This document shows positions 2,280 through 49,450 of a stretch of DNA of 64,000 nucleotides, in pieces (within the stretch, counting starts at the first letter, position 1; each line of letters opens with the position of its first letter). The notes under the pieces were generated by a model. It was not told the DNA's origin. It searched no databases and was given only the letters and a program-made list of their open reading frames with translations. The position numbers and the translations under genes are program-made. Location of the stretch: the NCBI GenBank assembly GCA_041661385.1, contig JBAZUP010000001.1, forward strand, positions 576,907 through 640,906, in the 5' to 3' direction. The stretch is from Patescibacteria group bacterium. GTDB taxonomy: Bacteria > Patescibacteriota > Patescibacteriia > Magasanikbacterales > GWA2-37-8.

Positions 2280-3047
2280 ATGCCCGTAATCGAACTTCCT
2301 GAAGTTAAAGAAAAGAATTTTTCCAAATTGGAAAAGGATTTTGGCATTACTTTTAAAAACAAAGATTTGCTCGTGCAAGCATTCATTCATCGCTCTTACC
2401 TCAACGAGCACCACGACTTTCCGCTTCCTCACAATGAACGCCTTGAATTTCTTGGTGATGCCGTACTTGAATTGATTGTTACAGAATTTCTTTTTGAACA
2501 ATACGGTAACCCAGAAGGCGAACTCACCAACTGGCGCGCCGCTCTTGTAAACGCCAAAACTCTGGCTTCAATTGCTTATGAGCTTGGCCTTGAACCGTAT
2601 CTTTTTCTAAGCCACGGCGAAGCCAAAGACACTGGAACCAAAGCGCGCGACTATATCATGGCGAATACCATTGAAGCTTTTCTCGGTTCAATTTATCTTG
2701 ATCAGGGCTATACCATAGCTAAACAATTTATCACTCGCTGGGTAATAGTTAAATTACCGGAAATTTTAGAAAACGGTTTGTATTTGGATGCAAAAAGCCG
2801 CCTTCAAGAATCTTCACAAGAATTACTTGGCATAACTCCAACCTATAAAGTTCTGCATGAAGAAGGACCTGATCACAACAAAACTTTTCGAGTCGGGGTT
2901 TATTTTGAAAAAGAATTGATTGCGACCGGTGAAGGAACAAGCAAACAAGAAGCCCAAACTGATGCCGCGGAACAGGCAGTTAAAATAAAAGGATGGAAGG
3001 GTCCGAAAATTTCTATTATAAAAAGAAATAACGGTGATCCGTTATAA
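2280..3047 (+). CDS. rnc: Ribonuclease III
   Basis: The ERLEFLGDAVLELIVTEFLF catalytic signature is present, with a C-terminal dsRBD. Confidence 0.9.
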   Translation: MPVIELPEVKEKNFSKLEKDFGITFKNKDLLVQAFIHRSYLNEHHDFPLPHNERLEFLGDAVLELIVTEFLFEQYGNPEGELTNWRAALVNAKTLASIAYELGLEPYLFLSHGEAKDTGTKARDYIMANTIEAFLGSIYLDQGYTIAKQFITRWVIVKLPEILENGLYLDAKSRLQESSQELLGITPTYKVLHEEGPDHNKTFRVGVYFEKELIATGEGTSKQEAQTDAAEQAVKIKGWKGPKISIIKRNNGDPL

Positions 3048-3052
3048 AAAAC

Positions 3053-3125
3053 GGGTCGGTAGCTCAGCTGGTAGAGCAGAGGCCTCTTAAGCCTAAGGTC
3101 CCGGGTTCGATCCCCGGCCGACCCA
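3053..3125 (+). tRNA. tRNA-Lys (anticodon CTT)
   Basis: Cloverleaf: acceptor GGGTCGG/CCGACCC, T-arm CCGGG-TTCGATC-CCCGG, anticodon loop CTCTTAA. Confidence 0.8.
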
Positions 3126-3169
3126 CATAAAAGAAAACTCCACGTAAGTGGGGTTTTTCTTTTATGTAG

Positions 3170-3400
3170 TTTGTCTGGGAGCGAACAGAAGATGGAAAGA
3201 AACGGAGTTTCTTTCTTGCTGAGGAAAGCCCACGAAAACCCGAAGGTTTTCGTGAAGCGAACGAAGTGAGCGCGTGAGATCCCCAACGACCCACATATAT
3301 GGAAACCCTTTTGTGGGAGGACGAGCGAAGCGAGGACGACGGAGATCCCCGACTCACTCGTGAGATCCCCAATTACAAACATAGCAGATCACATATATTC
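3170..3400 (+). repeat. tRNA-linked conserved element, copy A (about 110-nt structured core plus duplicated tRNA-Lys 3' end and extra GAGATCCCC repeats)
   Basis: The core 'gatggaaagaaac...cccacgaaaacccgaaggttttcgtg...gtgagcgcgtgagatcc' is about 90% identical to copy B at 5861-5965. It is followed by 'gatccccaacgacccacata', a near-copy of the tRNA-Lys T-loop-to-3' end. Confidence 0.7.
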
Positions 3401-3445
3401 TTTTATCCTCTTTTCTCTGTTATAATATCCATTGCAAAGATACAT

Positions 3446-4537
3446 ATGAATAATTATAAAAATAAAATTTCAATTCTCGCTACGTTTATTGTTTTGCTTT
3501 CGTTCGGAAACAATGTAGCGGCAAAAACAATCATTAACCCCGCACCCAAAAAAATTACCAAAGAATTCGTCCGAATTTTTTATTGTCAAAACGGAAAAAA
3601 AGCCAGTGACTCACTCGCAAAAAATTATCGCTCGGTCGATATTATCGCCCCTCAGGCCTATTCAATCACTGCAACCGGCACCCTCATTGGCGGAGTTGAC
3701 CCTAAAATCACTGCCATAGCGACAAAACGCAAAATAAAAATAATGCCGCTTATCGTTAACAAAGGTTTTAGTAGCCGCGCCGCTGCAGATTTTTTTGATG
3801 ATATAGAACACCAACAGTCGGCTGTGAACGCCATGGTGGATGAGGGAATAAAAAATTCTTATTGGGGCTGGCAAGTAGATTTTGAACAAGTAAATATTTC
3901 TTATCAAAAACAATTTTCAGATTTTGTCGCAATACTCGGAGATGCATTGCATAAAAACGGCATGACGGTCAGCGTTGCGGTAATTGCTCAGACCTCTACT
4001 GAACCAACCGACTATAAAGGTGACTATTGGAATAAGTTCATCGGCGTTTATGATTACGCCGCGCTTGCCTCCAGTTCAGATTTCATTAGTCTAATGTCCT
4101 ACGATGACCCGGGTTCGACCGGCCCCGCAACCAGGTACACCTGGCTCAAACAAGTTTTAAATTTTTCTCTCAAATATATTCCTCCAGAAAAAATATCTAT
4201 TGGCATACCATTATACTACTGGCGATGGAATGATTCGACCGGCAAAAGAGTCGGTACTGGTACTTACACGCAGTTATTACAAAAAATGAATCAGTATAAT
4301 ATGAAACGCGGTTATGACCCGAAAGAAGCCGCCTCATATATGCGTTACCGTAGTAATAAAATGACTTACACGATTTGGTATGAAAATAGCAAAAGCGTCG
4401 CAAAAAAAATTGATTTAATCAAAGAAAATGGTTTGCATGGTTTTTCAGCGTGGGCACTTGGGCAAGAAGTGCCAAATTTTCACGAAGCGATTTTTTCAAA
4501 TAAATATTTGGTTGATCGCTCATTGGTGATGCGATAA
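3446..4537 (+). CDS. Secreted glycoside hydrolase family 18-like protein (start at the internal ATG before the signal peptide)
   Basis: Signal peptide MNNYKNKISILATFIVLLSF. A WGWQVDFE motif resembles the GH18 DxxDxDxE catalytic motif. The ORF-track start at 3299 is upstream of the signal peptide and unlikely. Confidence 0.55.
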   Translation: MNNYKNKISILATFIVLLSFGNNVAAKTIINPAPKKITKEFVRIFYCQNGKKASDSLAKNYRSVDIIAPQAYSITATGTLIGGVDPKITAIATKRKIKIMPLIVNKGFSSRAAADFFDDIEHQQSAVNAMVDEGIKNSYWGWQVDFEQVNISYQKQFSDFVAILGDALHKNGMTVSVAVIAQTSTEPTDYKGDYWNKFIGVYDYAALASSSDFISLMSYDDPGSTGPATRYTWLKQVLNFSLKYIPPEKISIGIPLYYWRWNDSTGKRVGTGTYTQLLQKMNQYNMKRGYDPKEAASYMRYRSNKMTYTIWYENSKSVAKKIDLIKENGLHGFSAWALGQEVPNFHEAIFSNKYLVDRSLVMR

Positions 4538-4593
4538 AAAATCACTAGTCTTAACTACTTGCGCGATATTTCTTTATACTGATCCTATTTAGA

Positions 4594-4628
4594 AATAAAA
4601 AAATACAACCTACATGAGGTTGTATTTT
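4594..4628. terminator. Bidirectional rho-independent terminator
   Basis: Hairpin 'aaaaatacaacctacatgaggttgtatttttt' flanked by A/T runs. Confidence 0.6.
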
Positions 4629-4745
4629 TTCAGGTCTCCATCATTATATCCGCAAAATATTGTGAACATAATGATAGTGTGGAGACCTGACAGTACGGTC
4701 TCCACACTTTTTTAGCGTGTGAAGCTATACTGCTAGGCTACTGCC

Positions 4746-5519
4746 CTAGTGACAGCCGAAACAGGCTGACTTGAAGGCCGGGCTCACGTCGATCACGCCG
4801 TTGCCGTGCAGAGACGGAACGGTGCTGGTCAAAACGCCCGTGCAGTAGGTGTAAGGAGCGCAACTGGTGACGAGGCCACCCGAGGTATTCACGAAGCTCG
4901 GATAGCCGCCGGAGACGTAGGCGCCGGTCACGCCAGGGTGACAGAGCTGGCAAGCGTTTCCGTTCGGAGTGAACGGGAAAGCATGCCGGCCGCTGTGCCA
5001 CGCGGGGATGGTACCATCGGCGAGCCTCGCCGGGATGCTGTGACAGGCCGAGCAGGTTGCAGAGCCGGTCGCGTACCACGAAGGCGAAACACCGCCAGAA
5101 GGACCGCCGTAAGCGACGGTATTCTGCACGGGCTCGCCGTCACCACCCTGCATCCAGTAGGAGAAGGTCCCCGCAGGAATGCTGTGGCAGCCCACGTTGG
5201 AGCAGGTCTTGTCGACCGCGTTGAACGTCGGCCGAGGCAGGCTCGGGTTGTAGGCGGTGCTGGTCGAATCGAAGACGAGACGGCCGGCGACCTTGTGGCA
5301 GACGGAGCAGCTGTACCGATCGTGCTTCTGGTGCGCGCCAGTGGGCAGGCACCCCGGATCGCCGTCGAAACAGTCGGCGTGATCGGCCATGAGGGCCTGG
5401 GGGCCGGCGATCGTCGCCGGAGTCGCAGAAGACGCCTCTTCCGCCGGGGCAGTCGCATCGACACCGCAGGCAGACAGCAGGAGCAATGCCATGAGTCCAA
5501 GCGCAGAAAGGAACTTCAT
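4746..5519 (-). CDS. Putative multiheme c-type cytochrome lipoprotein in a compositionally foreign island (about 65% GC)
   Basis: Lipoprotein signal MKFLSALGLMALLLLSAC. Motifs CSVCH, CSACH, CQLCH and CFGCH plus CSNVGCH are present. GC content is far above the flanks. Confidence 0.5.
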   Translation of the reverse strand: MKFLSALGLMALLLLSACGVDATAPAEEASSATPATIAGPQALMADHADCFDGDPGCLPTGAHQKHDRYSCSVCHKVAGRLVFDSTSTAYNPSLPRPTFNAVDKTCSNVGCHSIPAGTFSYWMQGGDGEPVQNTVAYGGPSGGVSPSWYATGSATCSACHSIPARLADGTIPAWHSGRHAFPFTPNGNACQLCHPGVTGAYVSGGYPSFVNTSGGLVTSCAPYTYCTGVLTSTVPSLHGNGVIDVSPAFKSACFGCH

Positions 5520-5524
5520 TCGAA

Positions 5525-5597
5525 CCTCCCAAAAGCGTGTACTTCAACCACCATGGTTGAAGCCGAGCATTATATCATTTTTAGGCCATTTTGTCAA
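5525..5597 (-). promoter_or_regulatory. Perfect consensus sigma70 promoter, palindromic operator and SD for the GC-rich gene
   Basis: On the minus strand: TTGACA (5597-5592), 17 nt, TATAAT (5574-5569), palindrome cttcaaccatggtggttgaag (5562-5542), GGGAGG (5530-5525), ATG at 5519. Confidence 0.55.
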
Positions 5598-5750
5598 TAG
5601 TTTCAAAAAAAGGCCACCTAATGCTATAATCTTGATTTTTCTCTTAAAACATGATAAAGTTGGCATATTCACCGCCCCTATTTTCAAGTGAAATGAGCGA
5701 AATGAATTTATTCATTTCCGAATGAACGAAGAAAATACGGCAGCGCAGCT

Positions 5751-5822
5751 GCCCCTATATTTCAATGGATAGAATAACAGGCTTCGAACCTGTAGATGGG
5801 AGTTCGATCCTCTCTGGGGGCA
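5751..5822 (+). tRNA. tRNA-Arg (anticodon TCG)
   Basis: Acceptor GCCCCTA/TGGGGGC, anticodon stem ACAGG/CCTGT with loop CTTCGAA, T-arm GGGAG-TTCGATC-CTCTC. Confidence 0.75.
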
Positions 5823-5860
5823 CAAAATAAAACTGACCTTTGTGGTCTGTTTTATTTTAT

Positions 5861-6022
5861 CTTGAGGATTGAACTGAAGATGGAAAGAAACGAAGTCTCT
5901 TTCTTGTTGAGGAAAGCCCACGAAAACCCGAAGGTCTTCGTGAAAGCGAACACAGTGAGCGCGTGAGATCCTCTCTGGGGGCACAAAATAAAACTGATCT
6001 TAATGGTCAGTTTTATTTTATT
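5861..6022 (+). repeat. tRNA-linked conserved element, copy B (core plus exact duplicate of tRNA-Arg T-stem 3' strand, acceptor 3' strand and trailer hairpin)
   Basis: 'gatcctctctgggggcacaaaataaaactga' at 5966-5996 repeats the tRNA 3' end and terminator seen at 5805-5838. The core is homologous to copies A and C. Confidence 0.75.
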
Positions 6023-6202
6023 CATATTTGGTAAATTGAGATTAAAAAAATGAAATTTTTTTGAAATATTTCATTAAAAATATTTTTTTATCTCCTTTCA
6101 TCAACAACTAATGATGCTGTGCATAACTTTACCTCTTACTATTTCAATATTTCGTCATTACATATATAATATTATCGAGGTCGAAAACTTTTACATCGAT
6201 GC

Positions 6203-6280
6203 TTGTCATGTAAAATTTTCTCTAATAATATTTCGCGTTAGCGAATTACAATTGTATCCGCTCGGATACAAATGAAGGGA
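6203..6280 (+). promoter_or_regulatory. Promoter (TTGTCA, 17 nt, TAATAT) plus 9-bp inverted-repeat operator (ttgtatccg ctc ggatacaa)
   Basis: Read directly upstream of the small ORF at 6293. The palindrome lies between the promoter and the RBS. Confidence 0.4.
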
Positions 6281-6292
6281 GGTGCCAACCAT

Positions 6293-6379
6293 ATGGCCAA
6301 AAAGAAAAAGAAGGTAGTAAAGCGTAAGAAAGTAGTCGCCAAGAAAAAGAAAAAAGGCGGCAAAAAGAAAAAACGTTAA
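6293..6379 (+). CDS. 28-aa lysine-rich peptide (MAKKKKKVVKRKKVVAKKKKKGGKKKKR)
   Basis: GGGAGG RBS 8 nt upstream, and a rho-independent terminator 'aaaaaatctcctgcaagggagatttttt' immediately after. It is too short for the ORF track. Confidence 0.5.
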   Translation: MAKKKKKVVKRKKVVAKKKKKGGKKKKR

Positions 6380-6427
6380 ATGAAAAAATCTCCTGCAAGG
6401 GAGATTTTTTATTATTGAAATATTACT

Positions 6428-7708
6428 TTAGTTGGTTTTTCTAACCTTTTTACCATTTTCGAGTACGCTAATCTTCCCATAAACTCCATCATACCCCGGA
6501 GTAACATTAACTAGGCCAGAACGCATATTTTTAATGCCTAAAGTAATGTTTTTATCACTTACAATTTTATCAATTTTAGCTAAATCTTCATAAAGTAAAA
6601 CCGAAAATTCGCTACCGAGCTTAAGCAACATATTTCGGTATTCGAGTTCAACTTTTTTACTGGCTTTGCCAACTTCAAACGCGTTGGCAATAATTTCACG
6701 AAGCGGAACAATATATCGATGTGAAATAAACTTGCCCAAAATTTTATTTTCTGACCGATCGGCAAGTTTTTCTATCCGATTTAGAACCCCGACGGTAAGT
6801 TTCTTTTTGCAAACCGGACAAATTTCTTTACAATGAATTGTTTCAGACGGTTTGAGTGATACGTTGCAGGTCTTATGACCATCATGATAATACATCCCCT
6901 CTTCGGGATAAAATTCTATTGTATAAAGAAATTGTTTTTTATCGCCGGATCTAATTTTTTTCCAAAGTGAGTCGTAAGAAACTTCATTTTCATTTTTAAA
7001 AGCGATAACATTTGCCTCTCGGCCTAAATTTTGTAAACTGTGCGCATCTGAATTTGATACTAGGGCAATTTTATCCAGCTTACTAATTCGGCGGTTCATG
7101 GTCGGATCACTAGATAATCCGGTTTCAATAGCAAAAATATTTGGCGTTAATTCTTCAAAACATTCCTCAAGAGAATCATACCCGGATTTTGATCCGAAAA
7201 CTGCATACCATGGCGTCCAAGCATGAGCGGGAATTACTACTATTCTTTTATCAATACCAAGACAAATTTCAACAATGTTTTTTGCGGTAAGTCCCATCAT
7301 CGGCCGCCCGTCAGAACGCAAATTTACCCCATGTTCTTCAAGCTTTTTGTTAAATCTTTCAGCAATTTCTAAGCTGGGCACAAAAATTAAAAGGTGTATT
7401 CGCCTTACCTTATCGCGGTGTTTATAAATACAAGATATTTCTGTGCCAATAATAAATTTAGTTCTACTTTCACTATTTTTTAAACTCAGTAATCCACCCC
7501 CATCTTCCTTTAGCTCTTTTTTTATCAATGAAAACCAACCCGGATGAGTAAAATCCCCGGTCGAAACAATATTGATTCCTTTTTCCTCACATACCTTCGC
7601 TATCTTTGGCAATTCTAAATCTTTAGAACAAGCCCGAGCAAACTTCGAATGTATATGAAGATCAATGATTTTTTCAATCATGCTATGTTTCTTTAACTGA
7701 CTTTGCAA
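6428..7708 (-). CDS. PHP-domain protein, endonuclease Q-like (TIGR00375-type)
   Basis: N-terminal DLHIHS PHP motif, internal CPVCKKK zinc-finger, C-terminal GYDGVYG. Confidence 0.45.
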   Translation of the reverse strand: MQSQLKKHSMIEKIIDLHIHSKFARACSKDLELPKIAKVCEEKGINIVSTGDFTHPGWFSLIKKELKEDGGGLLSLKNSESRTKFIIGTEISCIYKHRDKVRRIHLLIFVPSLEIAERFNKKLEEHGVNLRSDGRPMMGLTAKNIVEICLGIDKRIVVIPAHAWTPWYAVFGSKSGYDSLEECFEELTPNIFAIETGLSSDPTMNRRISKLDKIALVSNSDAHSLQNLGREANVIAFKNENEVSYDSLWKKIRSGDKKQFLYTIEFYPEEGMYYHDGHKTCNVSLKPSETIHCKEICPVCKKKLTVGVLNRIEKLADRSENKILGKFISHRYIVPLREIIANAFEVGKASKKVELEYRNMLLKLGSEFSVLLYEDLAKIDKIVSDKNITLGIKNMRSGLVNVTPGYDGVYGKISVLENGKKVRKTN

Positions 7709-8810
7709 TTACTTTACTTACTCCTTTTTCAAAAACATTTGGCAAAATATTTTCCGCACTGGGTTTTTTGACGAGACCAGCGAGGGCAATTGCGGCGGAA
7801 AGTTTCATTTTGGTAGTAACTTTTTTTATTCTACTATCTAATAAACCACGGAAGATACCCGGGAAGACTAAAACATTATTTATTTGATTTGGAAAATCGC
7901 TGCGCCCGGTTGCGACTACTGCCGCTCCGGCTTTTTTCGCTAGGTCCGGCATGATTTCCGGCGTCGGGTTTGCGAGAGCAAAAATTATTGCCTGTTCATT
8001 CATGGTTTTAATCATTTCAACTGTTAAAACAGCCGGCTTACTTACCCCCACAAACACGTCGGCTTTTACAACCGCCTCTTTCAACCCACCAATTAGATTT
8101 TCTTTATTGGTGACACTCGCTAAAAATACCTTTTCTTCCTCAAGGTCAGTGCGATCTTTTGAAATTATTCCTTTTGAATCTACCATGATTATATTTTTTA
8201 CGCCTCCGTCCAAAAATAATTTTGCGATGGCAGTACCGGCTGCCCCAGCGCCATTTATTGCAACTTTTATTTCATCAATATTTTTTCCAACTACCTTCAA
8301 AGCATTAATTAGCCCTGCGAGAACAACAATCGCGGTGCCGTGTTGGTCGTCGTGAAATACTGGAATATCAAGCATATCTCCAAGACGTTTTTCAATTTCA
8401 AAACAACGCGGCGCGGAAATATCTTCCAAATTAATACCCCCAAACATTGGTGAAATATTTACAATAGTTTTTATAATTTCTCCGGTATCCTGAGTTTTAA
8501 GTGCAATTGGAAAAGCATCGACTCCGGCAAACTCTTTGAGTAAGGCACATTTGCCTTCCATAACCGGTAAACTCGCTTCGGGACCAATATTACCAAGACC
8601 GAGTACGGCACTGCCGTCGGTAATCACTGCGACTAAATTATTCTTTCTGGTTAATTCATATACTTCATTCTTATTTTTTTCGATTACAAGACAAGCTTCG
8701 GCAACGCCCGGAGTATAAGCAAGACTTAAATCTTTTTTATTTTTAATTTTTGCTCTCGAAATTATTTCAATTTTGCCTTTTAATTTTCGGTGATAAGTTA
8801 TTGAGTCCAT
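7683..8810 (-). CDS. NAD(P)-dependent malic enzyme (short form)
   Basis: 375 aa with the malic-enzyme NAD-binding Rossmann region and N-terminal ACT-less core. Confidence 0.75.
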
Positions 8811-8824
8811 AATTGAAATATTTA

Positions 8825-9517
8825 TTATTTAATTATTTCCAACCATTGGTCAGGTATTTGTGACTCCAATTTAATACTTTCTTCACCGGTCGCAGTAACA
8901 AAAGCGAGTGAAGTGGCAGATAACGCCAAAGATTTATCCGGTAACGGTTCCGGCGCTCCATATTTAATATCTCCAACTATCGGATGGCCGATGGCCGAGA
9001 GCTGGGCGCGAATCTGGTGTGAACGGCCCGTGCCAAGCCATATTTTTAATAGTGAATATTTTGAATTACTTTTTACCACTTCATAAGTAAGTTCGGCATC
9101 TTTACTGTCTTTCGTTGGTGAATCGTAAATTTTGACTTTGTTTTTATTTTCGTCTTTTACAATATGATGAATAATAGTTTGCTTAGCCTTCTCCGGCTTC
9201 CCGCAAACTACCGCGTGATAGATTTTTTCCACCGTATGTTCACGAAACTGCTCAGAAAGACGCGCCGCACCTTTGCTGGTTTTACCAAAAATAATTATGC
9301 CGGAAACCGGACGGTCCAAACGATGAATGAGACCAAGAAAAACCTTTCCTGGCTTATGGTATTTATTTTTTAAATAATATCTTACCTGATCGAGCAATGA
9401 CGAATCGCCAGTTTTGTCTTCTTGAACCAAAATACCCGCCGGTTTATAAACGGCGATTAAGTGATTATCTTCGTAGAGTACTTTTAAATCCATGTTAAAC
9501 ACTGCTCCACCGTGCAA
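8825..9517 (-). CDS. RluA-family pseudouridine synthase
   Basis: Catalytic HRLDRPVSG motif. Confidence 0.8.
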   Translation of the reverse strand: MHGGAVFNMDLKVLYEDNHLIAVYKPAGILVQEDKTGDSSLLDQVRYYLKNKYHKPGKVFLGLIHRLDRPVSGIIIFGKTSKGAARLSEQFREHTVEKIYHAVVCGKPEKAKQTIIHHIVKDENKNKVKIYDSPTKDSKDAELTYEVVKSNSKYSLLKIWLGTGRSHQIRAQLSAIGHPIVGDIKYGAPEPLPDKSLALSATSLAFVTATGEESIKLESQIPDQWLEIIK

Positions 9518-22299: not shown

Positions 22300-25825
<3,526 letters not shown>

Positions 25826-32657: not shown

Positions 32658-33014
32658 TTATTTAGACAACTGACTGAATACATAATTAGTAATTGCGTAG
32701 GCGCCGATGGTAATAATAAGACCCCAGATTGCGGAACTCAATGTCTCTTTGGCTTTGGATACAAGTTCCTCATTTCCGCGAGCGGTCATCCAGCGGATGC
32801 CGGCCATTGTTATTAACCCAAAAAAAACAAACCCAATCAAGCCAAGTACTGCGCTTATTGAAGCCTCAACTATTGAATAGACACTACTACCCGCGCCGGT
32901 GTCATACTGCGCTTTATTTGCTGCCGGATTTAAACCGTAGCTAACTGCCAAAACCGGCTTAACGGAAATTAATAAAAATGATAGTACTCCCAATAATAAA
33001 ATTTTTCTTTTCAT
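32658..33014 (-). CDS. TrbC/VirB2-like pilin-family small membrane protein (dispersed paralog)
   Basis: Signal peptide, then TM - RWMTARGNEE - TM, the same architecture and motif as the array at 35.0-39.9 kb. Confidence 0.55.
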   Translation of the reverse strand: MKRKILLLGVLSFLLISVKPVLAVSYGLNPAANKAQYDTGAGSSVYSIVEASISAVLGLIGFVFFGLITMAGIRWMTARGNEELVSKAKETLSSAIWGLIITIGAYAITNYVFSQLSK

Positions 33015-33064
33015 ACCTTGCTTTTTCGGTAAAAATTAAGTAACATAGGTGTGTTTTTCAAAAT

Positions 33065-33136
33065 GACCTTGTAGTTCAATGGATAGAACAGCAGCCTTCT
33101 AAGCTGCGGATCTAGGTTCGATTCCTAGCAGGGTCA
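33065..33136 (+). tRNA. tRNA-Arg (anticodon TCT)
   Basis: Acceptor GACCTTG/CAGGGTC, anticodon stem GCAGC/GCTGC with loop CTTCTAA, T-arm CTAGG-TTCGATT-CCTAG, followed by a terminator hairpin. Confidence 0.75.
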
Positions 33137-33253
33137 CAATAAAATGCGTCTTTAAGACGCTTTTATTATAGCAAAGATTGTATTTGTTGTCATTCAGTGA
33201 ATCGCAGTAAAAAAATACCCTGATATAAATCAGGGTATTTTAAATTTTCAATA

Positions 33254-33634
33254 TTACTGCGCGGAAGCTGGTGTGCCAATATTAACCGGTGCCACCTCAA
33301 TAATCTTATTGGAAGTCGGATTATACATATAAGCTTTTCTCGCACTTGTATAAATAAGCACCTTATCTCCGACACTCGCGTTATTAAAAAATGGTTGCTC
33401 TTTTTTTAATTTTTCCGGATCAGTAACGGTGGCTACGGTTGGAGTTTCACCGGACGGCAAAACAATAAGCTTCGAAACCTTATCGATAAGTTGTTGAGTC
33501 GATTCTTGAGCCGCCCTTTGAGGATCCTGCTTTAAAGTTGCCGTCTGACGATAAAAATAGACTGTCGTTGCACCTAAAATCAGCACTAAAACAACAAGGG
33601 TCAGAAGAAAGATTTTATTTTTGCCCTGCTCCAT
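33254..33634 (-). CDS. Hypothetical membrane-anchored protein
   Basis: N-terminal TM (IFLLTLVVLVLILGATTVYF). No recognisable domain. Confidence 0.4.
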   Translation of the reverse strand: MEQGKNKIFLLTLVVLVLILGATTVYFYRQTATLKQDPQRAAQESTQQLIDKVSKLIVLPSGETPTVATVTDPEKLKKEQPFFNNASVGDKVLIYTSARKAYMYNPTSNKIIEVAPVNIGTPASAQ

Positions 33635-33794
33635 ATTTTTCTATTTAATAAATGAGAGGTAGAGCCATTATATCACACTTTTTTAATGCTTCAAACTCCG
33701 GAAAAATGATTTTGTTGAAGTATGATATGCAATTTTAATTTGCAGAAATCCGTTTTAAAGCTAAAAACTCGCTTACAAAAATAAAAATCAGAAC

Positions 33795-33870
33795 TGGGGT
33801 GGCCTACGGGAATCGAACCCGTACTGCGAGATCCACAATCTCGCGTGCTAACCGCTACACCAAGACCACC
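33795..33870 (-). tRNA. tRNA-His (anticodon GTG) with encoded G-1 and CCA
   Basis: Reverse complement G-GTGGTCT...GTGT-AGCGGTTA-GCAC...CGAGA-TTGTGGA-TCTCG...ACGGG-TTCGATT-CCCGT-AGGCCAC-C-CCA. Confidence 0.7.
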
Positions 33871-33916
33871 CCACTTCTGACTTTTTAGTTACGCCATTAT
33901 AAACTACTTTTTACAA

Positions 33917-35047
33917 TTAATCAAGCCTTTGCTCCGAAATTGACCGATAAAGGTAATTTACTATCTCTTCATTACCGGACCGGAATTTTATCTTTTCATT
34001 TGCCATCAATATTTTTTTGCCATCTTCACCATCAATTACATCTTTTACCTTTTTTATAATTAATTCTGAATCCGTAAAATACCAACCCAGACCATTTTTT
34101 ACCACAAATTCCATTGTACCTTTTTCTTGCCCAAAAATAAAATGCGTAATAAGCAAAGGTTTCTGTAATAATAACGACTCATAAATAACCCCCGCGCCGG
34201 CCTTTGTAATAACCAAATCTGCTGCTCCCATCAACTCTGAAAGATTATCTACCCATCCCATTATCTTTGCTTCACTGTTATATTTTTGTTTTATACTGTG
34301 AAAGTTCTTCGCTTGACGCTTGTTAGTTCCACATACCGCAACCACTTCAGCGTTAATTTTATTTTTCAAAATCAGTTCGAATATTTTTTCTCCTTTTGGC
34401 AAACCATTTGCCCCACCAATCATCAAAATTATTTTTTTTCTTTCATTAATTTGATATTTATTTTTTACTTTCGCAACTTCCTCTGCCAATAAAATTTTTG
34501 TCGGGTGATTTACAATTTGATGAAATACAACTACCTTCTCCGGACTTACACCATTTGCCAATGCGATTTGTTTGGCAGCATCTGAATAAACAATATAGTG
34601 AAGGTTTTTATTATAAAACCAGATCGGCGAAACACTAAACGGATCAGTCACGATAATATATATCGGAATATCCATTTTTAAATCTTTTAAGGCGGAGCTA
34701 ATCGGTGAAACTAAAAAGTGCGTAGAAACAACCCCGCTCGGTTTATCAACCACCAGCCTGGCTTTAATTAAGGATTTTAAAAATAAATTAGTTAAAAAAT
34801 TTTCTAATTTTACTACTAACCTGCTGTTGTTTATAGTATAAATTACAGCATAAATCCAGGTTAAATTTTGTACCAGGAGAACATAACCGTTTTCAATAAT
34901 TAACCGAAAAAAAACTGAGGCCTGGTCGGCCATGTCAATTAATTTAGTCTCAGTTCCCGGATAAAGCCTTTTTAAATCCGATGCTAAGGCCTCCGCTGGA
35001 GCCTTATGTCCCCCTCCGGATTTGGCATAATATAGCCAAATTTTCAT
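33917..35047 (-). CDS. GT28-family glycosyltransferase (MGDG synthase/UgtP-like diacylglycerol glycosyltransferase)
   Basis: N-terminal SGGGH motif and a C-terminal MurG-like GT-B domain (ITKAGAGVIYESL). Confidence 0.6.
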   Translation of the reverse strand: MKIWLYYAKSGGGHKAPAEALASDLKRLYPGTETKLIDMADQASVFFRLIIENGYVLLVQNLTWIYAVIYTINNSRLVVKLENFLTNLFLKSLIKARLVVDKPSGVVSTHFLVSPISSALKDLKMDIPIYIIVTDPFSVSPIWFYNKNLHYIVYSDAAKQIALANGVSPEKVVVFHQIVNHPTKILLAEEVAKVKNKYQINERKKIILMIGGANGLPKGEKIFELILKNKINAEVVAVCGTNKRQAKNFHSIKQKYNSEAKIMGWVDNLSELMGAADLVITKAGAGVIYESLLLQKPLLITHFIFGQEKGTMEFVVKNGLGWYFTDSELIIKKVKDVIDGEDGKKILMANEKIKFRSGNEEIVNYLYRSISEQRLD

Positions 35048-35048
35048 A

Positions 35049-35504
35049 CTATTTATTAAGTGCCCTGTTCACAACATCATCAAGTGTTTGTCCGCCGCTG
35101 CCGGCATTGGTACCTAAATTTCTGCCGAGCGCCAAATTGGTTATCAAAATAGTTATTCCGTAAGCACTAATAATAATTAACAGACCAATAGTAGAATTTG
35201 CAATAGTTTTTTTTGATGAAGCAATTTGCTCGTCATTTCCCTGCGCCGTCATCCATTTGAAACCCGCAAACGCAATTAGCACAAATAAAACGGTACCGAC
35301 CAGAGATAAAAGCAATCTAATCATTTGTGAGGCGATTAGTCTTGGGTCTTTTGGTTCACTAAATCCAGCTCCAGTAGTTCCACCGGCGTGTCCAAGCTGA
35401 TTAAAAGATTCTGTGAGCCATCCTTGAGCGCTGGCTTTTGGTACCAATAGGAACAATGCTAACCATAGAACGGTTGTTATTAGAATTGTTTTCTTAAAAT
35501 TCAT
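35049..35504 (-). CDS. TrbC/VirB2-like pilin paralog 1 (FKWMTAQGNDEQI)
   Basis: Signal peptide, hydrophilic spacer, TM1, WMTAQGN-E loop, TM2, and a Gly/Asn-rich tail. Confidence 0.55.
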   Translation of the reverse strand: MNFKKTILITTVLWLALFLLVPKASAQGWLTESFNQLGHAGGTTGAGFSEPKDPRLIASQMIRLLLSLVGTVLFVLIAFAGFKWMTAQGNDEQIASSKKTIANSTIGLLIIISAYGITILITNLALGRNLGTNAGSGGQTLDDVVNRALNK

Positions 35505-35510
35505 ATGATT

Positions 35511-35903
35511 TTAAAATGATGTCGCTTGAGCAGTGTAAATCATGACAAAAGCAGTGATGCTATAAGCTGCGACGACTACAACCATACCAATTGTAGCGGT
35601 AGTAATAATATTTTTGGCTTTAGCTACTTGTTCTTCATTGCCCTGCGCAGTCATCCAAAGAAAACCAGAATAAACCATTAGAGCAAAGAAGATTGTACCA
35701 ACAAATGTTAAAACTATTTTAATTATCCGTCCGATTGTTTCAGAAAGGGTATATTGAGTTGTGTTTATACTAAAACCAGCATATCTCGCAATATTTTGCG
35801 CCGTTCCATTGTATCCTACCCCGATGTCTGGCGCGGCGAAAACCGGCACAATAAAAAATAATGAAATCATTAATGACAGAAAAAGGAAAAATTTATTTTT
35901 CAT
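35511..35903 (-). CDS. TrbC/VirB2-like pilin paralog 2 (FLWMTAQGNEEQV)
   Basis: Same architecture as paralog 1; 130 aa. Confidence 0.55.
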   Translation of the reverse strand: MKNKFFLFLSLMISLFFIVPVFAAPDIGVGYNGTAQNIARYAGFSINTTQYTLSETIGRIIKIVLTFVGTIFFALMVYSGFLWMTAQGNEEQVAKAKNIITTATIGMVVVVAAYSITAFVMIYTAQATSF

Positions 35904-35915
35904 ATTACATTAATT

Positions 35916-36416
35916 CTATGGAGCTGTCATACAACAAATCAAACTACTTGGGCAATCTGTTCCGGGCGCTTCAATTTCGAAATTCAGAGTACAGGAAGAT
36001 TTACATGTTCCACCATATTGACCTGTACAAGAAACGGATGTGTCACCGGTTGAACTGCTAATTCTTCCAGTTACAAAAGCGGTTATTGCATAGGCCGCCA
36101 TAACAACAACTAAACCAATTACGGCCTGTTGTATCATGCTTTTTGCATGGGATACTTTTTCTTCATTACCCTGCGCAGTCATCCAGGTAATTCCCGCCCA
36201 GACCGTTAACACCAAAAAAATTGTTCCAACTAACGATAACAGTCCGCTTATTACTGTTCCGACCGACATACTAAGATCGCCAGACAGTCCAACTTTACTT
36301 CCTTCGCCAACGGCAGATTTTAAATTATTTAATCCGTTTGTTAAAGGCGCGGCCTCAACAAAATTTTGAACTAGAAACAAACTACCGAGAGCCGCAATTA
36401 TTAAAACTTTTTTCAT
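35916..36416 (-). CDS. TrbC/VirB2-like pilin paralog 3 with a Cys-rich C-terminal tail (probable start at the internal MKKVLIIAAL)
   Basis: ITWMTAQGNEEKV motif and tail ...SCTGQYGGTCKSSCTLNFEIEAPGTDCPSSLICC. The ORF-track start at 36614 overlaps the upstream paralog. Confidence 0.5.
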   Translation of the reverse strand: MKKVLIIAALGSLFLVQNFVEAAPLTNGLNNLKSAVGEGSKVGLSGDLSMSVGTVISGLLSLVGTIFLVLTVWAGITWMTAQGNEEKVSHAKSMIQQAVIGLVVVMAAYAITAFVTGRISSSTGDTSVSCTGQYGGTCKSSCTLNFEIEAPGTDCPSSLICCMTAP

Positions 36417-36423
36417 ATAAAAA

Positions 36424-36975
36424 TTATTGACAAACACAAGTTGCAGAACCGTCTGCATCAACACAACTACCCGCTGTGTTGGACGCTGTAGTACAACTGC
36501 TATTAGTAACTCTGTTCGCACAAACCGCCTCACTACCGGAATTACAAACTGCCTGACTTGAGTTTCCCGTTTGTAAATTTGAAAAAATGAAATTTGTAAT
36601 TGCGTACGCAGCAAGAATCACAATAATTCCAATTGCTGCTGACTCGATGGTTTCTTTTGACTTGTCAATTTTTTCACTATTACCTCGCGCCGTCATCCAA
36701 TTAAAACCCGCATACAAAATCAAAAGGAAAAATACGATTCCAATTATCGACAAGACAATTTGAACAACCGAGCCAACCAACTCTGGTATAGCGTTTGGTC
36801 CGGCCTCAACTTCAGCAACCTTGGATGGCAAATAACAATCTTTTTTCCCCGAATCATTACAAGTCGCTTCTTGAGTCGCTTTCGTGCCATAATCAACGGC
36901 ATAACTATCTAAAGCCAATGAAAACCCGCCAAGCAAGACCAGAGCTAATAAGATTTTTCCAAAATTCTTTTTCAT
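36424..36975 (-). CDS. TrbC/VirB2-like pilin paralog 4 with a Cys-rich C-terminal tail (probable start at the internal MKKNFGKILL)
   Basis: FNWMTARGNSEKI motif and tail CNSGSEAVCANRVTNSSCTTASNTAGSCVDADGSATCVCQ. Confidence 0.5.
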   Translation of the reverse strand: MKKNFGKILLALVLLGGFSLALDSYAVDYGTKATQEATCNDSGKKDCYLPSKVAEVEAGPNAIPELVGSVVQIVLSIIGIVFFLLILYAGFNWMTARGNSEKIDKSKETIESAAIGIIVILAAYAITNFIFSNLQTGNSSQAVCNSGSEAVCANRVTNSSCTTASNTAGSCVDADGSATCVCQ

Positions 36976-37033
36976 ATATATTTTATCGAAATCGCGTCGT
37001 GAATCATTGATTGCTGCATTTTCAAACCCGCTT

Positions 37034-37435
37034 CTAATATGTTGCATTAACCAAATTCGTAATCACAAAATATGTAATCGAATATGAAACTAAAATTACC
37101 GCGAGTCCGATTACCCCGGTATATATTCGTCTTTTCGCTTGACTTACTTTTTCGTCGTTACCGGCCGAAGTCATCCATTCATATCCACCATACAACATTA
37201 TAACCAAAAAAATAATACCCACCATGCTGAGTGCAAGGCGGATCGTTTTGGCGGTAGTTATGCGAACATCCGTATCGGCAAAACCTGCAGTGCGCGGATA
37301 ACCAACACCAAGCGGATCAGCGCTGCCGGTCAGTAAAGATTGAGCAGAAACCGGCTGAAGATATACAGCTGCTCCGAATACAACCAAAAAAAGACCGATA
37401 ATTAGTCCCGTTATATTTTTATTTCGTAAATTCAT
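37034..37435 (-). CDS. TrbC/VirB2-like pilin paralog 5 (YEWMTSAGNDEKV)
   Basis: Same architecture; 133 aa. Confidence 0.55.
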   Translation of the reverse strand: MNLRNKNITGLIIGLFLVVFGAAVYLQPVSAQSLLTGSADPLGVGYPRTAGFADTDVRITTAKTIRLALSMVGIIFLVIMLYGGYEWMTSAGNDEKVSQAKRRIYTGVIGLAVILVSYSITYFVITNLVNATY

Positions 37436-37514
37436 AGCAGTTGTGTTTTCTATCTGCTAAAAGACACAATCCACTACCCAATCCGCGCAATTGCGCGGAT
37501 TGGGAGTTGATCTA

Positions 37515-37895
37515 CTAAGCTGTAGCTGTAACCAATTGATTGACGACAAAGTTTGCAAGACCGTAAGCTGATAGAATTATAGCGAGACCGATAACGGCCG
37601 CGATCATAATTTTCTTAGCTGTACCGACTTGTTCGTCGTTACCACCTGCAGTCATCCAAAGGAAGCCTGCGTAAAGCATCAATACTACTGTTACGATACC
37701 AAGGAACGCCATGGCGGCGCGAATGATTCTGGCGACAGTCGTACGGATGTCGGTTGTTGATAATCCGAGAGCCGGAGTAAGTTCACTGGTATTCAATAGC
37801 TCTGTTGGTGTGAGAGATTGAGCTAAAGCTGGGGTGAAAGTGAACAAGTTCAAACCGACCGCGAATATTGTTGCTAGTTTCTGAAAAGTTTTCAC
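37515..37895 (-). CDS. TrbC/VirB2-like pilin paralog 6 (FLWMTAGGNDEQV); probable GTG start after a GGAGG RBS
   Basis: The signal peptide begins at VKTFQKLATIFAVG. The upstream part of the 166-aa ORF-track frame has no signal-peptide character. Confidence 0.5.
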   Translation of the reverse strand: MKTFQKLATIFAVGLNLFTFTPALAQSLTPTELLNTSELTPALGLSTTDIRTTVARIIRAAMAFLGIVTVVLMLYAGFLWMTAGGNDEQVGTAKKIMIAAVIGLAIILSAYGLANFVVNQLVTATA

Positions 37896-38052
37896 AATTT
37901 CACCTCCCTTCCAAAATAGTTTTCTGACATATTTTATATTTTGACTCCTTCTCTGTCCATCACAAGCAGTTATACTTTTTAGTGAACTAAAACGTATAAT
38001 CCGCTTCCCAACCATGGTTTTATCAAAGGTTGGGAGCAGTTTAATTTTATTT

Positions 38053-38439
38053 TTATGGAGCAGTCGTGGCTGTCACTAATGAATTAATGACAAAATTCGC
38101 AATACCATACGCGGACAAAATAATTGCGAGACCGATGATGCCGGAGAAGATCCATTTTTTGGCTTCGCCGACTTTTTCATCGTTACCGCCAGCAGTCATC
38201 CAGGTGAAACCTCCGATAAGAATGATTACTACAGCGATTATACCAAGCATTCCCATGGCAACGCGAATTATGCGAGCAATGGTAATACGGATATCTGAGT
38301 CAGAAAGACCGGTAGCTGTTTGAATTCCTGTTGGCATTAATTCTGAACTTTGCAAAACAGTTTGCGCGAGTACTGGACTTGCTGCCAGCATGGTGGAACC
38401 CATTGCAATTACCGTGACAAATTTTTGTATTTTATTCAT
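38053..38439 (-). CDS. TrbC/VirB2-like pilin paralog 7 (FTWMTAGGNDEKV)
   Basis: Same architecture; 128 aa. Confidence 0.55.
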   Translation of the reverse strand: MNKIQKFVTVIAMGSTMLAASPVLAQTVLQSSELMPTGIQTATGLSDSDIRITIARIIRVAMGMLGIIAVVIILIGGFTWMTAGGNDEKVGEAKKWIFSGIIGLAIILSAYGIANFVINSLVTATTAP

Positions 38440-38924: not shown

Positions 38925-38934
38925 ATTAAACTTA

Positions 38935-49178: not shown

Positions 49179-49260
49179 GCCCGGGTGGTGAAATTGGTAG
49201 ACACAAGAGACTTAAAATCTCTCGCCGCAAGGCATACCGGTTCGATTCCGGTCCCGGGCA
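49179..49260 (+). tRNA. tRNA-Leu (anticodon TAA), long variable arm
   Basis: GCCCGGGTGGTGAAATTGGTAGACAC-AAGAGA-CTTAAAA-TCTCT...ACCGG-TTCGATT-CCGGT-CCCGGGC-A, followed by a perfect terminator hairpin at 49265-49300. Confidence 0.8.
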
Positions 49261-49300
49261 CATAATAAACACGGCCAGCATATGAAGCTGGCCGTGTTTA

Positions 49301-49450
49301 TTACATATTGGTCGGAATCGAACGGAAAGGGTTTGGGAAAACTGCTCGGCAGTTTACCCGCTATTGCCGGGGTGAGCCCACGAGAGGGCGGAAGTCATTT
49401 CGTGGGAGCGAGTGAAACGAGCGACGTTTGATTCCTCCCGGGCTAACTCA
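49301..49450 (+). repeat. tRNA-linked conserved element, copy C (diverged core plus partial duplicate of the tRNA-Leu T-loop and 3' end)
   Basis: 'gcccacgagagggcggaagtcatttcgtgggagcgagtgaaacgagcgacgtttgattcctcccgggc' parallels the cores and junctions of copies A and B. The T-loop GATTCC and acceptor strand CCCGGGC are repeated. Confidence 0.55.

What the first reader, a model, noticed from the sequence alone, without database searches (positions are those of the whole stretch)
3126..3400. Copy A of the tRNA-linked element after tRNA-Lys, with three tandem GAGATCCCC junction repeats
The core (about 3186-3277) is about 90% identical to copy B. It is followed by gatccccaacgacccacata, a diverged duplicate of the tRNA-Lys T-loop, acceptor strand and trailer. 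The junction motif GAGATCCCC then recurs at about 3342 and 3362, with a second CACATATAT at about 3390. This pattern suggests repeated insertion/excision cycles or nested att sites. It overlaps the implausible upstream extension of the ORF-track call 3299-4537.
Basis: seen in the sequence. Interest (0 to 1): 0.55.

Follow-up and report, generated by a model that had tools for sequence, protein, structure and literature searches.

The report
Small structured element parked behind tRNA genes
Copy A belongs to an apparently undescribed, multi-copy family of about 200-base structured modules that sit directly behind tRNA genes in tiny-genome (CPR/Patescibacteria) bacteria. Each module is closed by a stem built from copies of its own tRNA's 3' end, and copy A is followed by the wrecks of two further copies.

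Summary
GAGATCCCC occurs only at 3276, 3342 and 3362. 3278-3298 copies the tRNA-Lys 3' end (18/21). Core A matches core B at about 91%.

- A third, diverged copy follows tRNA-Leu (49305-49445).
- Two public scans gave 48 distinct units, almost all in Patescibacteria MAGs, behind at least 14 tRNA isotypes and always on the tRNA's strand.

Each module has four parts:
- a terminator-like hairpin;
- a 5' arm that is the reverse complement of the host tRNA's T-loop and T-stem;
- a conserved multi-helix core (P2 and P3 covary; G.U pairs on the + strand);
- a 3' arm copying the tRNA from the T-loop to the discriminator.

Close relatives differ in whether a unit is present. One identical module sits at several loci that share a tRNA-Ser-like end. 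Arrays with truncated members occur. The two extra GAGATCCCC junctions are such wrecks; one is 45/49 identical to the 3' half of a different subtype.

Best reading: a non-autonomous mobile module that integrates at tRNA 3' ends and accretes in tandem. The enzyme and the intermediate are unknown. A host RNA function is not excluded. No Rfam, phage, plasmid or literature match was found.

The parts
3053..3126 (+). tRNA-Lys(ctt), host gene of copy A. It is intact.
   Evidence: ARAGORN; Rfam tRNA 69.3 bits.
3127..3167 (+). A-tract / GC hairpin / T-tract: a terminator-like hairpin between the tRNA and the unit.
   Evidence: Terminator scan stem 3133-3158. 29 of 32 family members have such a hairpin at this place.
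3168..3186 (+). 5' arm: a degenerate reverse complement of the tRNA-Lys T-loop, T-stem 3' strand and acceptor, ending in CGAAC.
   Evidence: Inverted repeat I21. The fold of the tRNA 3' third + hairpin + arm has -42.8 kcal/mol. Family-wide, the arm matches its own tRNA with a mean longest Watson-Crick run of 10.4 against 6.9 for other tRNAs; 0 of 10000 permutations reached this.
3187..3275 (+). Conserved core of copy A: J1/2 3187-3194, P2 3195-3215, J2/3 (TTGCTGAGGAAAGCC) 3216-3230, P3 3231-3254, P4 region 3255-3274.
   Evidence: Covariance model R1 scores 75.9 bits, E 4e-21. P2 and P3 are 99.2% paired across 63 distinct sequences, and all 8 P2 pairs show compensatory changes.
3276..3300 (+). 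Junction GAGAT plus the 3' arm: a decayed copy of tRNA-Lys from the T-loop to the discriminator and trailer (CCCCAACGACCCACATATAT).
   Evidence: 18/21 match to 3109-3129; 0 of 2000 shuffles. In the family, 19 of 32 units carry at least 15 of the last 17 nt of their own tRNA here; the control mean is 6.3.
3301..3357 (+). Remnant 1: the 3' half (P3 loop and 3' strand, P4, GAGAT junction, short decayed 3' arm) of a second unit of the diverged 'type C' subtype.
   Evidence: 45/49 identical to L060 5971-6019, the unit behind tRNA-Lys in a relative whose RNase III is 88% identical.
3358..3398 (+). Remnant 2: the last ~9 nt of a third unit (TCGTGAGAT), followed by a sequence read as a strongly decayed, AT-shifted tRNA-Lys 3' end and a second CACATATAT.
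   Evidence: Alignment A5; motif positions. The tRNA similarity alone is not significant.
5751..5823 (+). tRNA-Arg(tcg), host gene of copy B.
5806..5860 (+). Copy B, left direct repeat: tRNA-Arg from T-loop GAT to its end, plus trailer and terminator hairpin.
   Evidence: Repeat family D14, 55 nt, 93% identical.
5861..5966 (+). Copy B insert: 5' arm and core.
   Evidence: R1 scores 65.7 bits; alignment to copy A.
5967..6021 (+). Copy B, right direct repeat: 3' arm identical to the tRNA-Arg 3' end (17/17), plus a second terminator.
49179..49261 (+). tRNA-Leu(taa), host gene of copy C.
49262..49445 (+). Copy C, not in the finding: hairpin 49262-49304, 5' arm GGTCGGAATCGAAC, a diverged 'type C' core, and a 3' arm GATTCC--TCCCGGGC.
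   Evidence: R1 scores 25.1 bits, E 5e-6 with filters off; sequence. It is the same subtype as L060 5888-5986 and L002 7885-7983.

Best explanation
Copy A is one of three copies in this window. They belong to a family of about 200-nt non-autonomous modules that live immediately 3' of tRNA genes in Patescibacteria.

A module has four parts:
1. a terminator-like hairpin;
2. a 5' arm that is the reverse complement of the host tRNA's T-loop and T-stem 3' strand;
3. a conserved core of helices P2, P3 and P4 joined by purine-rich strands;
4. a 3' arm that copies the host tRNA from about position 58 to the discriminator.

The two arms pair with each other (P1) on the tRNA-sense strand. The 5' arm can alternatively pair with the real tRNA's T-arm across the hairpin.

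Shown:
- the anatomy;
- the covariation;
- the link to tRNAs;
- the multi-copy state;
- differences in presence between close relatives;
- spread of one identical module to several sites that share a tRNA-like end;
- tandem arrays with truncated members.

Inferred: the module moves as a unit, as a small circle or single strand of DNA or by way of RNA. It recombines with the 3' end of a tRNA gene that matches its arms. The crossover lies somewhere between the T-loop and the base after the discriminator. The tRNA therefore stays intact and a second copy of its 3' end is left distal to the module. This is the topology of integrase-type insertion at tRNA genes. Repeated insertion at the same tRNA, followed by internal deletion and AT-biased decay, gives the three GAGATCCCC junctions behind tRNA-Lys.

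The catalyst is encoded elsewhere and is unknown.
For: Family and tRNA link:
- There are 48 distinct units in 59 public loci.
- 33 units have a same-strand tRNA ending directly upstream, from at least 14 isotypes. The others follow a tRNA-like 3' fragment or reach a contig end.

Arms come from the host tRNA:
- 3' arm: at least 15/17 identical to the unit's own tRNA in 19 of 32 units, against a control mean of 6.3.
- 5' arm: mean longest complementary run of 10.4 with its own tRNA against 6.9 with others; 0 of 10000 permutations reached this. The arm tracks unusual T-loops, such as TGCGATT in L003 and TTCGACT in L029.

Fold:
- P2 and P3 are 99.2% paired, against 86.3% in shuffles. 16 of 18 pairs show double changes. 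There are 23 G.U cells on the + strand against 8 non-pairs.
- In L062 both arms have drifted from the tRNA but remain complementary to each other.

Mobility:
- Behind tRNA-Lys(ctt) a unit is present in the window and in L062/L063. A different subtype is there in L060. None is there in L061, whose RNase III protein is identical to L060's, nor in L064 or L045/46/50/58.
- Behind tRNA-Arg(tcg) the pattern is the reverse.
- An identical module, including its hairpin and arms, is found behind tRNA-Ser(gga), behind tRNA-Ser(cga) and behind two tRNA-Ser-like 3' fragments. Its borders fall exactly at ...CTCTCCGC.
- Direct repeats of about 52-62 nt, perfect or 93% identical and running from T-loop GAT to the end of the terminator, flank an insert of about 100 nt in L028, L046, L058 and window copy B.
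- Arrays with truncated members occur in L004, L014, L039, L046 and window A.
Against: - No recombinase, transposase or reverse transcriptase lies next to A, B or C, and none recurs next to units. The exception is a large serine recombinase in about 5 independent loci, which may only share the tRNA-end target.
- No circular or empty-site junction for the same flanks was recovered.
- The P2-P3 core is at least 94% identical across genera and tRNA hosts, while hairpins and P4 differ. That fits purifying selection on a host function as well as it fits recognition by a mobilising enzyme.
- In 28 of 32 units the hairpins before and after the unit are unrelated although the 3' arm is often 17/17. 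In 4 units they are duplicated. One mechanism does not obviously give both patterns.
- The same core types sit on many different tRNAs with matching arms. How the arms become matched to a new tRNA is not explained. Possibilities are copying at insertion, gene conversion or selection.
Confidence: 0.55

Rival explanations
1. The module is a host-beneficial non-coding RNA gene family. It is co-transcribed by read-through from the tRNA promoter. The 5' arm toggles between pairing with the tRNA's T-arm and pairing with the 3' arm. This would control or report tRNA 3' maturation or termination, or yield a stable four-helix RNA. Copies arise by ordinary recombination and are kept by selection.
For: - G.U pairs favour the tRNA-sense strand, and P2/P3 covariation is strong.
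- Junction strands are nearly invariant across genera.
- The unit behind tRNA-Lys seems orthologous in the window and in L062 (rnc 85% identical), with a conserved core but diverged hairpin and arms.
- In L062 and L039 the arms stay complementary to each other.
- L027 keeps the pairing between tRNA and 5' arm through G.U pairs.
- Units have the tRNA's orientation in every case, and 21 of 32 are followed by their own terminator.
Against: - Presence is patchy among close relatives, and only 3 of the 6 tRNAs in the window carry a unit.
- Truncated and decayed copies are common.
- A terminator-like hairpin lies between the tRNA and the unit in 29 of 32 cases, so expression would depend on read-through.
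- No expression data are available.
- Identical modules behind non-tRNA fragments look selfish rather than functional.
Confidence: 0.25
2. The module is a retro-element-like insertion. The unit RNA is made by read-through. It is copied into the tRNA gene by target-primed reverse transcription, from a nick in the T-loop on the bottom strand. A second nick after the terminator gives a long target-site duplication, which becomes the 3' arm plus terminator. The 5' arm is made by snap-back synthesis from the terminator hairpin.
For: - Long duplications of about 52-62 nt start at T-loop GAT and end just after the terminator in L028, L046, L058 and window B.
- The tRNA 3' third, hairpin and 5' arm form one long imperfect palindrome centred on the hairpin loop in nearly all units.
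- This mechanism would match both arms to any new tRNA automatically, which fits the same core types sitting on many isotypes.
- Orientation is fixed and no promoter of its own was seen.
Against: - No reverse transcriptase was found near any unit.
- Most units have unrelated hairpins on the two sides.
- The tRNA-Ser-type modules and unit 1 of L039 carry arms inherited from elsewhere rather than copied from the local target.
- In young copy B the complement of the acceptor strand is missing from the 5' arm, which simple snap-back copying does not predict.
Confidence: 0.12
3. The units are inert scars: conserved end pieces (attL side) of larger integrase-borne genomic islands that were later deleted, with the duplicated tRNA ends as leftover att cores.
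For: - Direct repeats of the tRNA 3' end starting in the T-loop are the classic signature of integrase-type islands (established knowledge).
- Cargo genes lie behind units: GH18 and a lipoprotein after copy A, and variable genes in L060-L062.
- In L040 a 6-kb island carrying a large serine recombinase is flanked by two identical units.
Against: - The same borders recur in about 48 units, with a covarying fold and near-invariant junctions. Independent deletions would not give this.
- Most units have no island next to them.
- No tyrosine integrase was seen in any locus.
- Serine recombinases do not create long direct repeats (established knowledge).
Confidence: 0.08

Closest known systems
Integrase-type genomic islands at tRNA genes and their integrase-less derivatives (cis-mobilisable elements, tandem accretion)
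   Same: - Insertion at the 3' part of a tRNA gene that leaves the tRNA intact.
- A direct repeat that begins in the T-loop and runs to or past the tRNA's end.
- A distal copy that decays.
- Tandem arrays at one tRNA.
- No recombinase in the small element.
   Different: - The module is only about 200 nt and has no genes.
- It has a covarying multi-helix core.
- It carries an extra arm that is the reverse complement of the T-arm.
- One core family serves at least 14 tRNA isotypes, whereas an integrase family normally keeps to one or a few targets.
- No tyrosine integrase was found in any locus.
Integron attC sites and gene cassettes
   Same: - A strand-specific fold closed by inverted repeats, ending in ...AAC at the 5' side and, in one subtype, starting GTT... 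at the 3' side.
- Structure is conserved through sequence change.
- Arrays occur in one orientation at a fixed entry point.
- Cargo genes lie between units in some loci.
   Different: - attC sites are simple hairpins with little internal sequence conservation, whereas here the internal core is nearly invariant.
- The entry point is a tRNA gene, not attI.
- The arms are copies of the target.
- No IntI-type integrase was seen.
- No attC model was available, so this was not tested.
IS200/IS605 miniature derivatives (PATEs) and TnpB omega-RNA
   Same: - For the tRNA-Ser-type modules, insertion is immediately 3' of a specific sequence with no short target duplication.
- There are hairpins near both ends.
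- A segment next to a hairpin base-pairs with the target or cleavage region.
- A scaffold is followed at its 3' end by 16-18 nt identical to the flank, which is the layout of a guide RNA.
   Different: - No TnpA or TnpB gene was found.
- The pairing segment is 10-16 nt rather than 4 nt.
- Some copies have direct repeats of about 52-62 nt.
- The element's right end repeats the target.
- There is no Rfam omega-RNA match.
Group IIC introns
   Same: They insert just after intrinsic terminator hairpins, in one orientation.
   Different: The unit is far too small, and there is no match to intron domains (Rfam). The tRNA end is duplicated, which retrohoming does not do.

Membership tests
Any Rfam 15 RNA family | A covariance-model match at or near the gathering score | tested here: not met
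   Only tRNA and rRNA reach the gathering score in the window. With permissive E-values, the units in the window and in 10 loci give only sub-threshold noise. The sX4 match in L042 (38.5 bits against a cutoff of 70) comes from its tRNA-Ser part.
Integrase-type tRNA-targeting island or cis-mobilisable element | Direct repeats of the tRNA 3' part flanking the element, with the tRNA left intact | tested here: met
   Copy B has a 55-nt repeat at 93% identity. Copy A's repeat matches at 18/21. 19 of 32 units have at least 15/17.
Integrase-type tRNA-targeting island or cis-mobilisable element | A tyrosine integrase in the element, or a related autonomous element able to act in trans | tested here: not met
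   The neighbours of A, B and C are GH18, a Cys-rich lipoprotein and an Exo_endo_phos protein. The only recurrent recombinase in 59 loci is a large serine recombinase, in about 5 independent contexts. Whole genomes could not be searched.
[quoted passage not shown] | Element-specific terminal inverted repeats and a short (2-10 bp) target-site duplication | tested here: not met
   The inverted arms are copies of the host tRNA and differ from locus to locus. The repeats are 17-62 nt.
IS200/IS605 miniature element or omega-RNA | A TnpA or TnpB gene in the genome, and insertion 3' of a fixed 4-5-nt target without duplication | tested here: inconclusive
   The borders of the tRNA-Ser-type modules fit insertion right after ...CTCTCCGC, but window copy B, L028, L046 and L058 have long repeats. 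No TnpA or TnpB was seen in the loci.
Integron attC site | R''/R' boxes (RYYYAAC...GTTRRRY), a simple bulged hairpin and a nearby IntI integrase | not tested
   There is only a visual resemblance...TCGAAC at the 5' side and GTTCGAAT in the L001 subtype. No attC model is available, and no IntI-like ORF was seen in the loci.
Small protein gene (MERNGVSFLLRKAHENPKVF...) | A start codon and reading frame conserved across copies | tested here: not met
   The ATG is present only in the GATGG subtype. 30 of the 46 units parsed have AAGGG-type sequence there. The stretch forms covarying hairpins. A and B differ by a frameshift.
Self-cleaving ribozymes (hammerhead and others) | A match to the conserved catalytic core | tested here: not met
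   There are no Rfam ribozyme matches at E up to 10. CUGAGGA is present, but the GAAA strand required after stem II is not conserved in the family (GAGAG, GGGAG; reading).

The most novel reading that the evidence does not exclude
The module is a nucleic-acid-programmed mobile element. Its arms would act as guides that select the target, so that any tRNA 3' end matching them can be entered. The conserved P2-P3-P4 core would be the scaffold bound by a recombinase or nuclease encoded elsewhere, or would itself be catalytic. That would make it a tRNA-directed analogue of bridge-RNA or omega-RNA systems, reduced to the RNA/DNA part alone. It would also need a way of rewriting both arms when it colonises a new tRNA.
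Probability: 0.2. Interest if true: 0.9.

Novelty: new variant of a known kind. Interest (0 to 1): 0.66.

Why it matters
- **Genome burden.** CPR bacteria have genomes under 1 Mb with little room for passengers, yet 3 of the 6 tRNA genes in this window carry such a module.
- **A compact, new-looking system.** If the arms really set the target, this is a very small system for site-specific insertion next to essential genes without harming them. It would also be a new source of structured RNA or DNA scaffolds.
- **Annotation and assembly.** The family explains assembly breaks at tRNA loci: two short public contigs carrying the window's own RNase III gene end about 35 nt past its stop codon. It also explains false ORF extensions such as 3299-4537, and the variable gene cargo behind tRNAs in these genomes.

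Tried and rejected
- **Small ORF in the core.** Three of the four A/B substitutions before an indel are synonymous. The idea was rejected because most units lack the ATG, the stretch is two covarying hairpins, and A and B differ by a frameshift.
- **Known RNA families, including ribozymes, group I/II introns, Y RNA and tmRNA.** No Rfam match. The hammerhead-like CUGAGGA was rejected because the rest of the catalytic core is absent.
- **RNase P.** The resemblance of GAGGAAAGC to the P4 strand of RNase P RNA was noted from memory only and treated as chance.
- **Phage or plasmid origin.** No matches in IMG/VR with two patterns, in INPHARED phages or in PLSDB plasmids.
- **Literature.** Four word searches and one sequence-string search gave nothing relevant.
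- **Large serine recombinase as the mobilising enzyme.** Many apparent hits were antisense translations of the unit itself. The real genes lie 0-6 kb away in about 5 contexts. They also sit at a tRNA end without any unit (L030), so the link may only be a shared target.
- **One mechanism for all copies.** Neither target-site duplication nor a module carrying its own hairpin explains all copies. The data contain both patterns, so this is left open.
- **A clean empty/filled pair with identical flanks.** None was found for A or B, because the DNA after these tRNAs is hypervariable among relatives. Contigs carrying the window's own RNase III are too short to help.

Full report
**1. What is at 3126-3400**

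tRNA-Lys(ctt) occupies 3053-3126. The sequence after it reads as follows:
- 3127-3167: an A-tract / GC-stem / T-tract hairpin.
- 3168-3186: a stretch ending in CGAAC.
- 3187-3275: a core that is 91% identical to 5866-5944 behind tRNA-Arg(tcg).
- 3276-3300: GAGAT plus CCCCAACGACCCACATATAT. This matches the tRNA-Lys T-loop-to-trailer segment at 18 of 21 columns, and no shuffle out of 2000 scored as high.

GAGATCCCC occurs only three times in the window, at 3276, 3342 and 3362, against 0.2 expected. CACATATAT is at 3292 and 3390. ORF 3299-4537 runs through these repeats. Its GH18 domain lies well downstream, and a Met followed by a hydrophobic, signal-peptide-like stretch starts at 3446, so the upstream extension is probably false.

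**2. The second and third junctions are wrecks of further units**

- 3301-3349 is 45/49 identical to the 3' half (P3 loop and 3' strand, P4, junction) of the unit behind tRNA-Lys in L060. L060 is a relative whose RNase III is 88% identical to the window's. That unit belongs to a diverged subtype, here called type C.
- 3358-3366 is the last 9 nt of a unit. I read the sequence after it as an AT-shifted, decayed tRNA-Lys end. That similarity alone is not significant.

So tRNA-Lys is followed by one whole unit and two truncated ones.

**3. More copies in the window**

- Copy B: a 55-nt direct repeat (5806-5860 and 5967-6021, 93% identical) flanks a 106-nt insert. The repeat runs from T-loop GAT through the tRNA-Arg end, trailer and terminator.
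- Copy C: a covariance model built from family members (R1) found a third, type C copy at 49306-49404, directly behind tRNA-Leu(taa) (25 bits, E 5e-6).
- The other three tRNAs of the window have no unit.

**4. The family**

A codon-degenerate pattern in GTDB species genomes gave 29 loci, and an exact pattern in JGI metagenomes gave 30. Together they hold 48 distinct units. By record title, nearly all are in Magasanikbacteria, Uhrbacteria or other Patescibacteria MAGs. A few are labelled Gammaproteobacteria, or simply 'bacterium', in the record title, and one WWE3 MAG contig matches a Magasanikbacteria locus in the stretch compared. One MAG has up to 7 units.

- 33 units have a same-strand tRNA ending directly upstream, from at least 14 isotypes.
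- The rest follow a tRNA-like 3' fragment or reach a contig end.
- Nothing was found in IMG/VR, in phage records or in plasmid records. Rfam had no match at permissive thresholds. The literature had nothing, either by words or by sequence string.

**5. Anatomy**

Reading 5' to 3' on the tRNA's strand:
- a hairpin, present in 29 of 32 units;
- a 5' arm;
- J1/2 (GGRAAGRGG);
- P2, 8-10 bp, often with a GNRA loop;
- J2/3 (YUGYNGAGGAAAGCN);
- P3 (CACGAAAACC-CGAA-GGUUUUCGUG in the main subtype);
- a variable P4;
- (G)UGAGAU, or GUUCGAAU plus an extra hairpin in one subtype;
- the 3' arm;
- in 21 of 32 units, another terminator-like hairpin.

Evidence on the parts:
- The 3' arm equals the last 17 nt of the unit's own tRNA at 15 or more positions in 19 of 32 units. 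The control mean with other tRNAs is 6.3.
- The 5' arm is the reverse complement of the unit's own tRNA T-loop and T-stem 3' strand. The mean longest Watson-Crick run is 10.4 with its own tRNA against 6.9 with others, and 0 of 10000 permutations reached this. It follows unusual T-loops.
- The arms can pair with each other (P1, including a tandem G.A motif, CGAAC/GUGAG). Alternatively, the 5' arm pairs with the real tRNA across the hairpin, giving one long imperfect palindrome.
- P2 and P3 are 99.2% paired in 63 distinct sequences, against 86.3% in shuffles and at most 62% when slid. 16 of 18 pairs have double changes. Diverged members show that P3 covaries too.
- G.U cells on the + strand (23) outnumber all non-pairs (8). 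The fold therefore belongs to the tRNA-sense strand, as RNA or as single-stranded DNA.
- A small ORF suggested by the A/B comparison is rejected.

**6. Evidence for gain, loss and movement**

*Relatives found through RNase III.*

| Locus | Unit behind tRNA-Lys(ctt) |
|---|---|
| window, L062/L063 | main type |
| L060 | type C |
| L061 (RNase III protein identical to L060's) | none |
| L064 | none |
| L045/46/50/58 | none; tRNA-Lys and tRNA-Arg lie only 12-17 nt apart |

tRNA-Arg(tcg) shows the opposite pattern. Homology between L060 and L061 breaks right at the end of tRNA-Lys.

*In one Magasanikbacteria MAG,* an identical module of about 195 nt (hairpin, arms, core) lies behind tRNA-Ser(gga) and behind two tRNA-Ser-like 3' fragments. 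It also lies behind tRNA-Ser(cga) in a metagenome contig. Its borders fall exactly after ...CTCTCCGC on both sides. Here the arms travelled with the module, and the targets share the arm sequence.

*In L039,* the proximal unit has arms that agree with each other but not fully with the resident tRNA.

*By contrast,* window B, L028, L046 and L058 have repeats of about 52-62 nt that include the terminator. In the other 28 units the two hairpins are unrelated, although the 3' arm is often 17/17.

The same core types occur on many isotypes. Either the arms are rewritten when a new tRNA is entered, or cores are exchanged among resident modules by gene conversion. I could not decide between these.

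**7. Proteins**

- No integrase, transposase or reverse transcriptase lies near A, B or C. The neighbours are GH18, a Cys-rich lipoprotein and an Exo_endo_phos protein.
- Clustering all ORFs of the 59 loci gave one recurrent recombinase, a large serine recombinase with Resolvase, Recombinase and Zn_ribbon domains. It occurs in about 5 independent contexts.
- In L040 it belongs to a 6-kb island flanked by two identical units. In L030 it abuts a tRNA-Gly that has no unit. I treat it as another tRNA-end-seeking element, not as the shown mobiliser.

**8. Interpretation**

The best-supported reading (0.55) is a non-autonomous mobile module that recombines with the 3' end of a matching tRNA gene. 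The tRNA stays intact and a distal copy of its end is left behind. Repeated entry and decay give arrays such as the one behind tRNA-Lys. The topology is that of integrase-type islands and their integrase-less derivatives. The small size, the covarying core, the reverse-complement arm and the breadth of tRNA targets are not.

Rivals:
- A host RNA gene family with a pairing switch at the tRNA's T-arm (0.25). This does not exclude mobility.
- A target-primed retro-element with snap-back copying (0.12).
- Inert island scars (0.08).

The most novel reading still open is that the arms act as guides for an enzyme encoded elsewhere (0.2).

**9.

The idea of repeated insertion at a tRNA-linked site is supported in outline. 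Excision and att/integrase chemistry remain unshown.

Noticed in passing
window 49262-49445: A third, diverged copy of the element ('type C') lies directly behind tRNA-Leu(taa). An Exo_endo_phos-family gene (49451-50269, minus strand) abuts it.
   Followed up: partly
window 3127-5750: In several relatives (L045, L046, L050, L058) tRNA-Lys(ctt) and tRNA-Arg(tcg) are 12-17 nt apart. Here 2.6 kb lies between them: units, a GH18 gene and a Cys-rich lipoprotein gene. L060, L061 and L062 each carry different genes in the same gap. It is a hypervariable cargo site between two tRNAs.
   Followed up: partly
window 5668-5753: A conserved leader of about 85 nt lies in front of tRNA-Arg(tcg). It begins with a near copy of the tRNA's own 5' end (GCCCCTATTTTCAAGTG against GCCCCTATATTTCAATGG). 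It contains GAGCGAA/GAACGAAG words like the unit's P4, and it ends in a hairpin overlapping the tRNA start. The same arrangement is in L060 and L062. It may be an old unit remnant or a second, 5'-linked element.
   Followed up: no
L040 (reverse strand) about 2600-8960; also L030 11167-12684: Islands carrying a large serine recombinase sit at tRNA 3' ends. In L040 a 6-kb island is flanked by two identical units and ends in a tRNA-Ser-like 3' fragment (GTTCCAACATCGTCCCAGCCTCTCCGCAC).
   Followed up: partly
L064 5848-6025: tRNA-Lys (+) and tRNA-Arg(tcg) (-) are convergent and share one bidirectional hairpin. In this relative the tRNA-Arg gene is inverted compared with the window.
   Followed up: no
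window 22309-25821 (minus strand): The 23S rRNA match spans 3513 nt for a 2925-position model, so there is an insertion of about 590 nt. Insertions in rRNA genes have been reported for CPR bacteria (from memory).
   Followed up: no
window 32746-39505 (minus strand): Eleven copies of a 56-nt repeat are spaced about 400-540 nt apart, within a run of small paralogous genes for secreted or membrane proteins.
   Followed up: no
L042 221-388: There is a sub-threshold Rfam match to the Xanthomonas sRNA sX4 (38.5 bits; gathering score 70). The sX4 model itself consists of a tRNA-Ser-like part plus a 3' extension that pairs back onto the T-stem/acceptor strand. That is a loosely similar layout in Proteobacteria.
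   Followed up: partly
L066, L067 (contigs carrying the window's own RNase III): Short-read assemblies of this organism break about 35 nt after the RNase III stop codon, inside tRNA-Lys. This fits the repeated units fragmenting assemblies.
   Followed up: no
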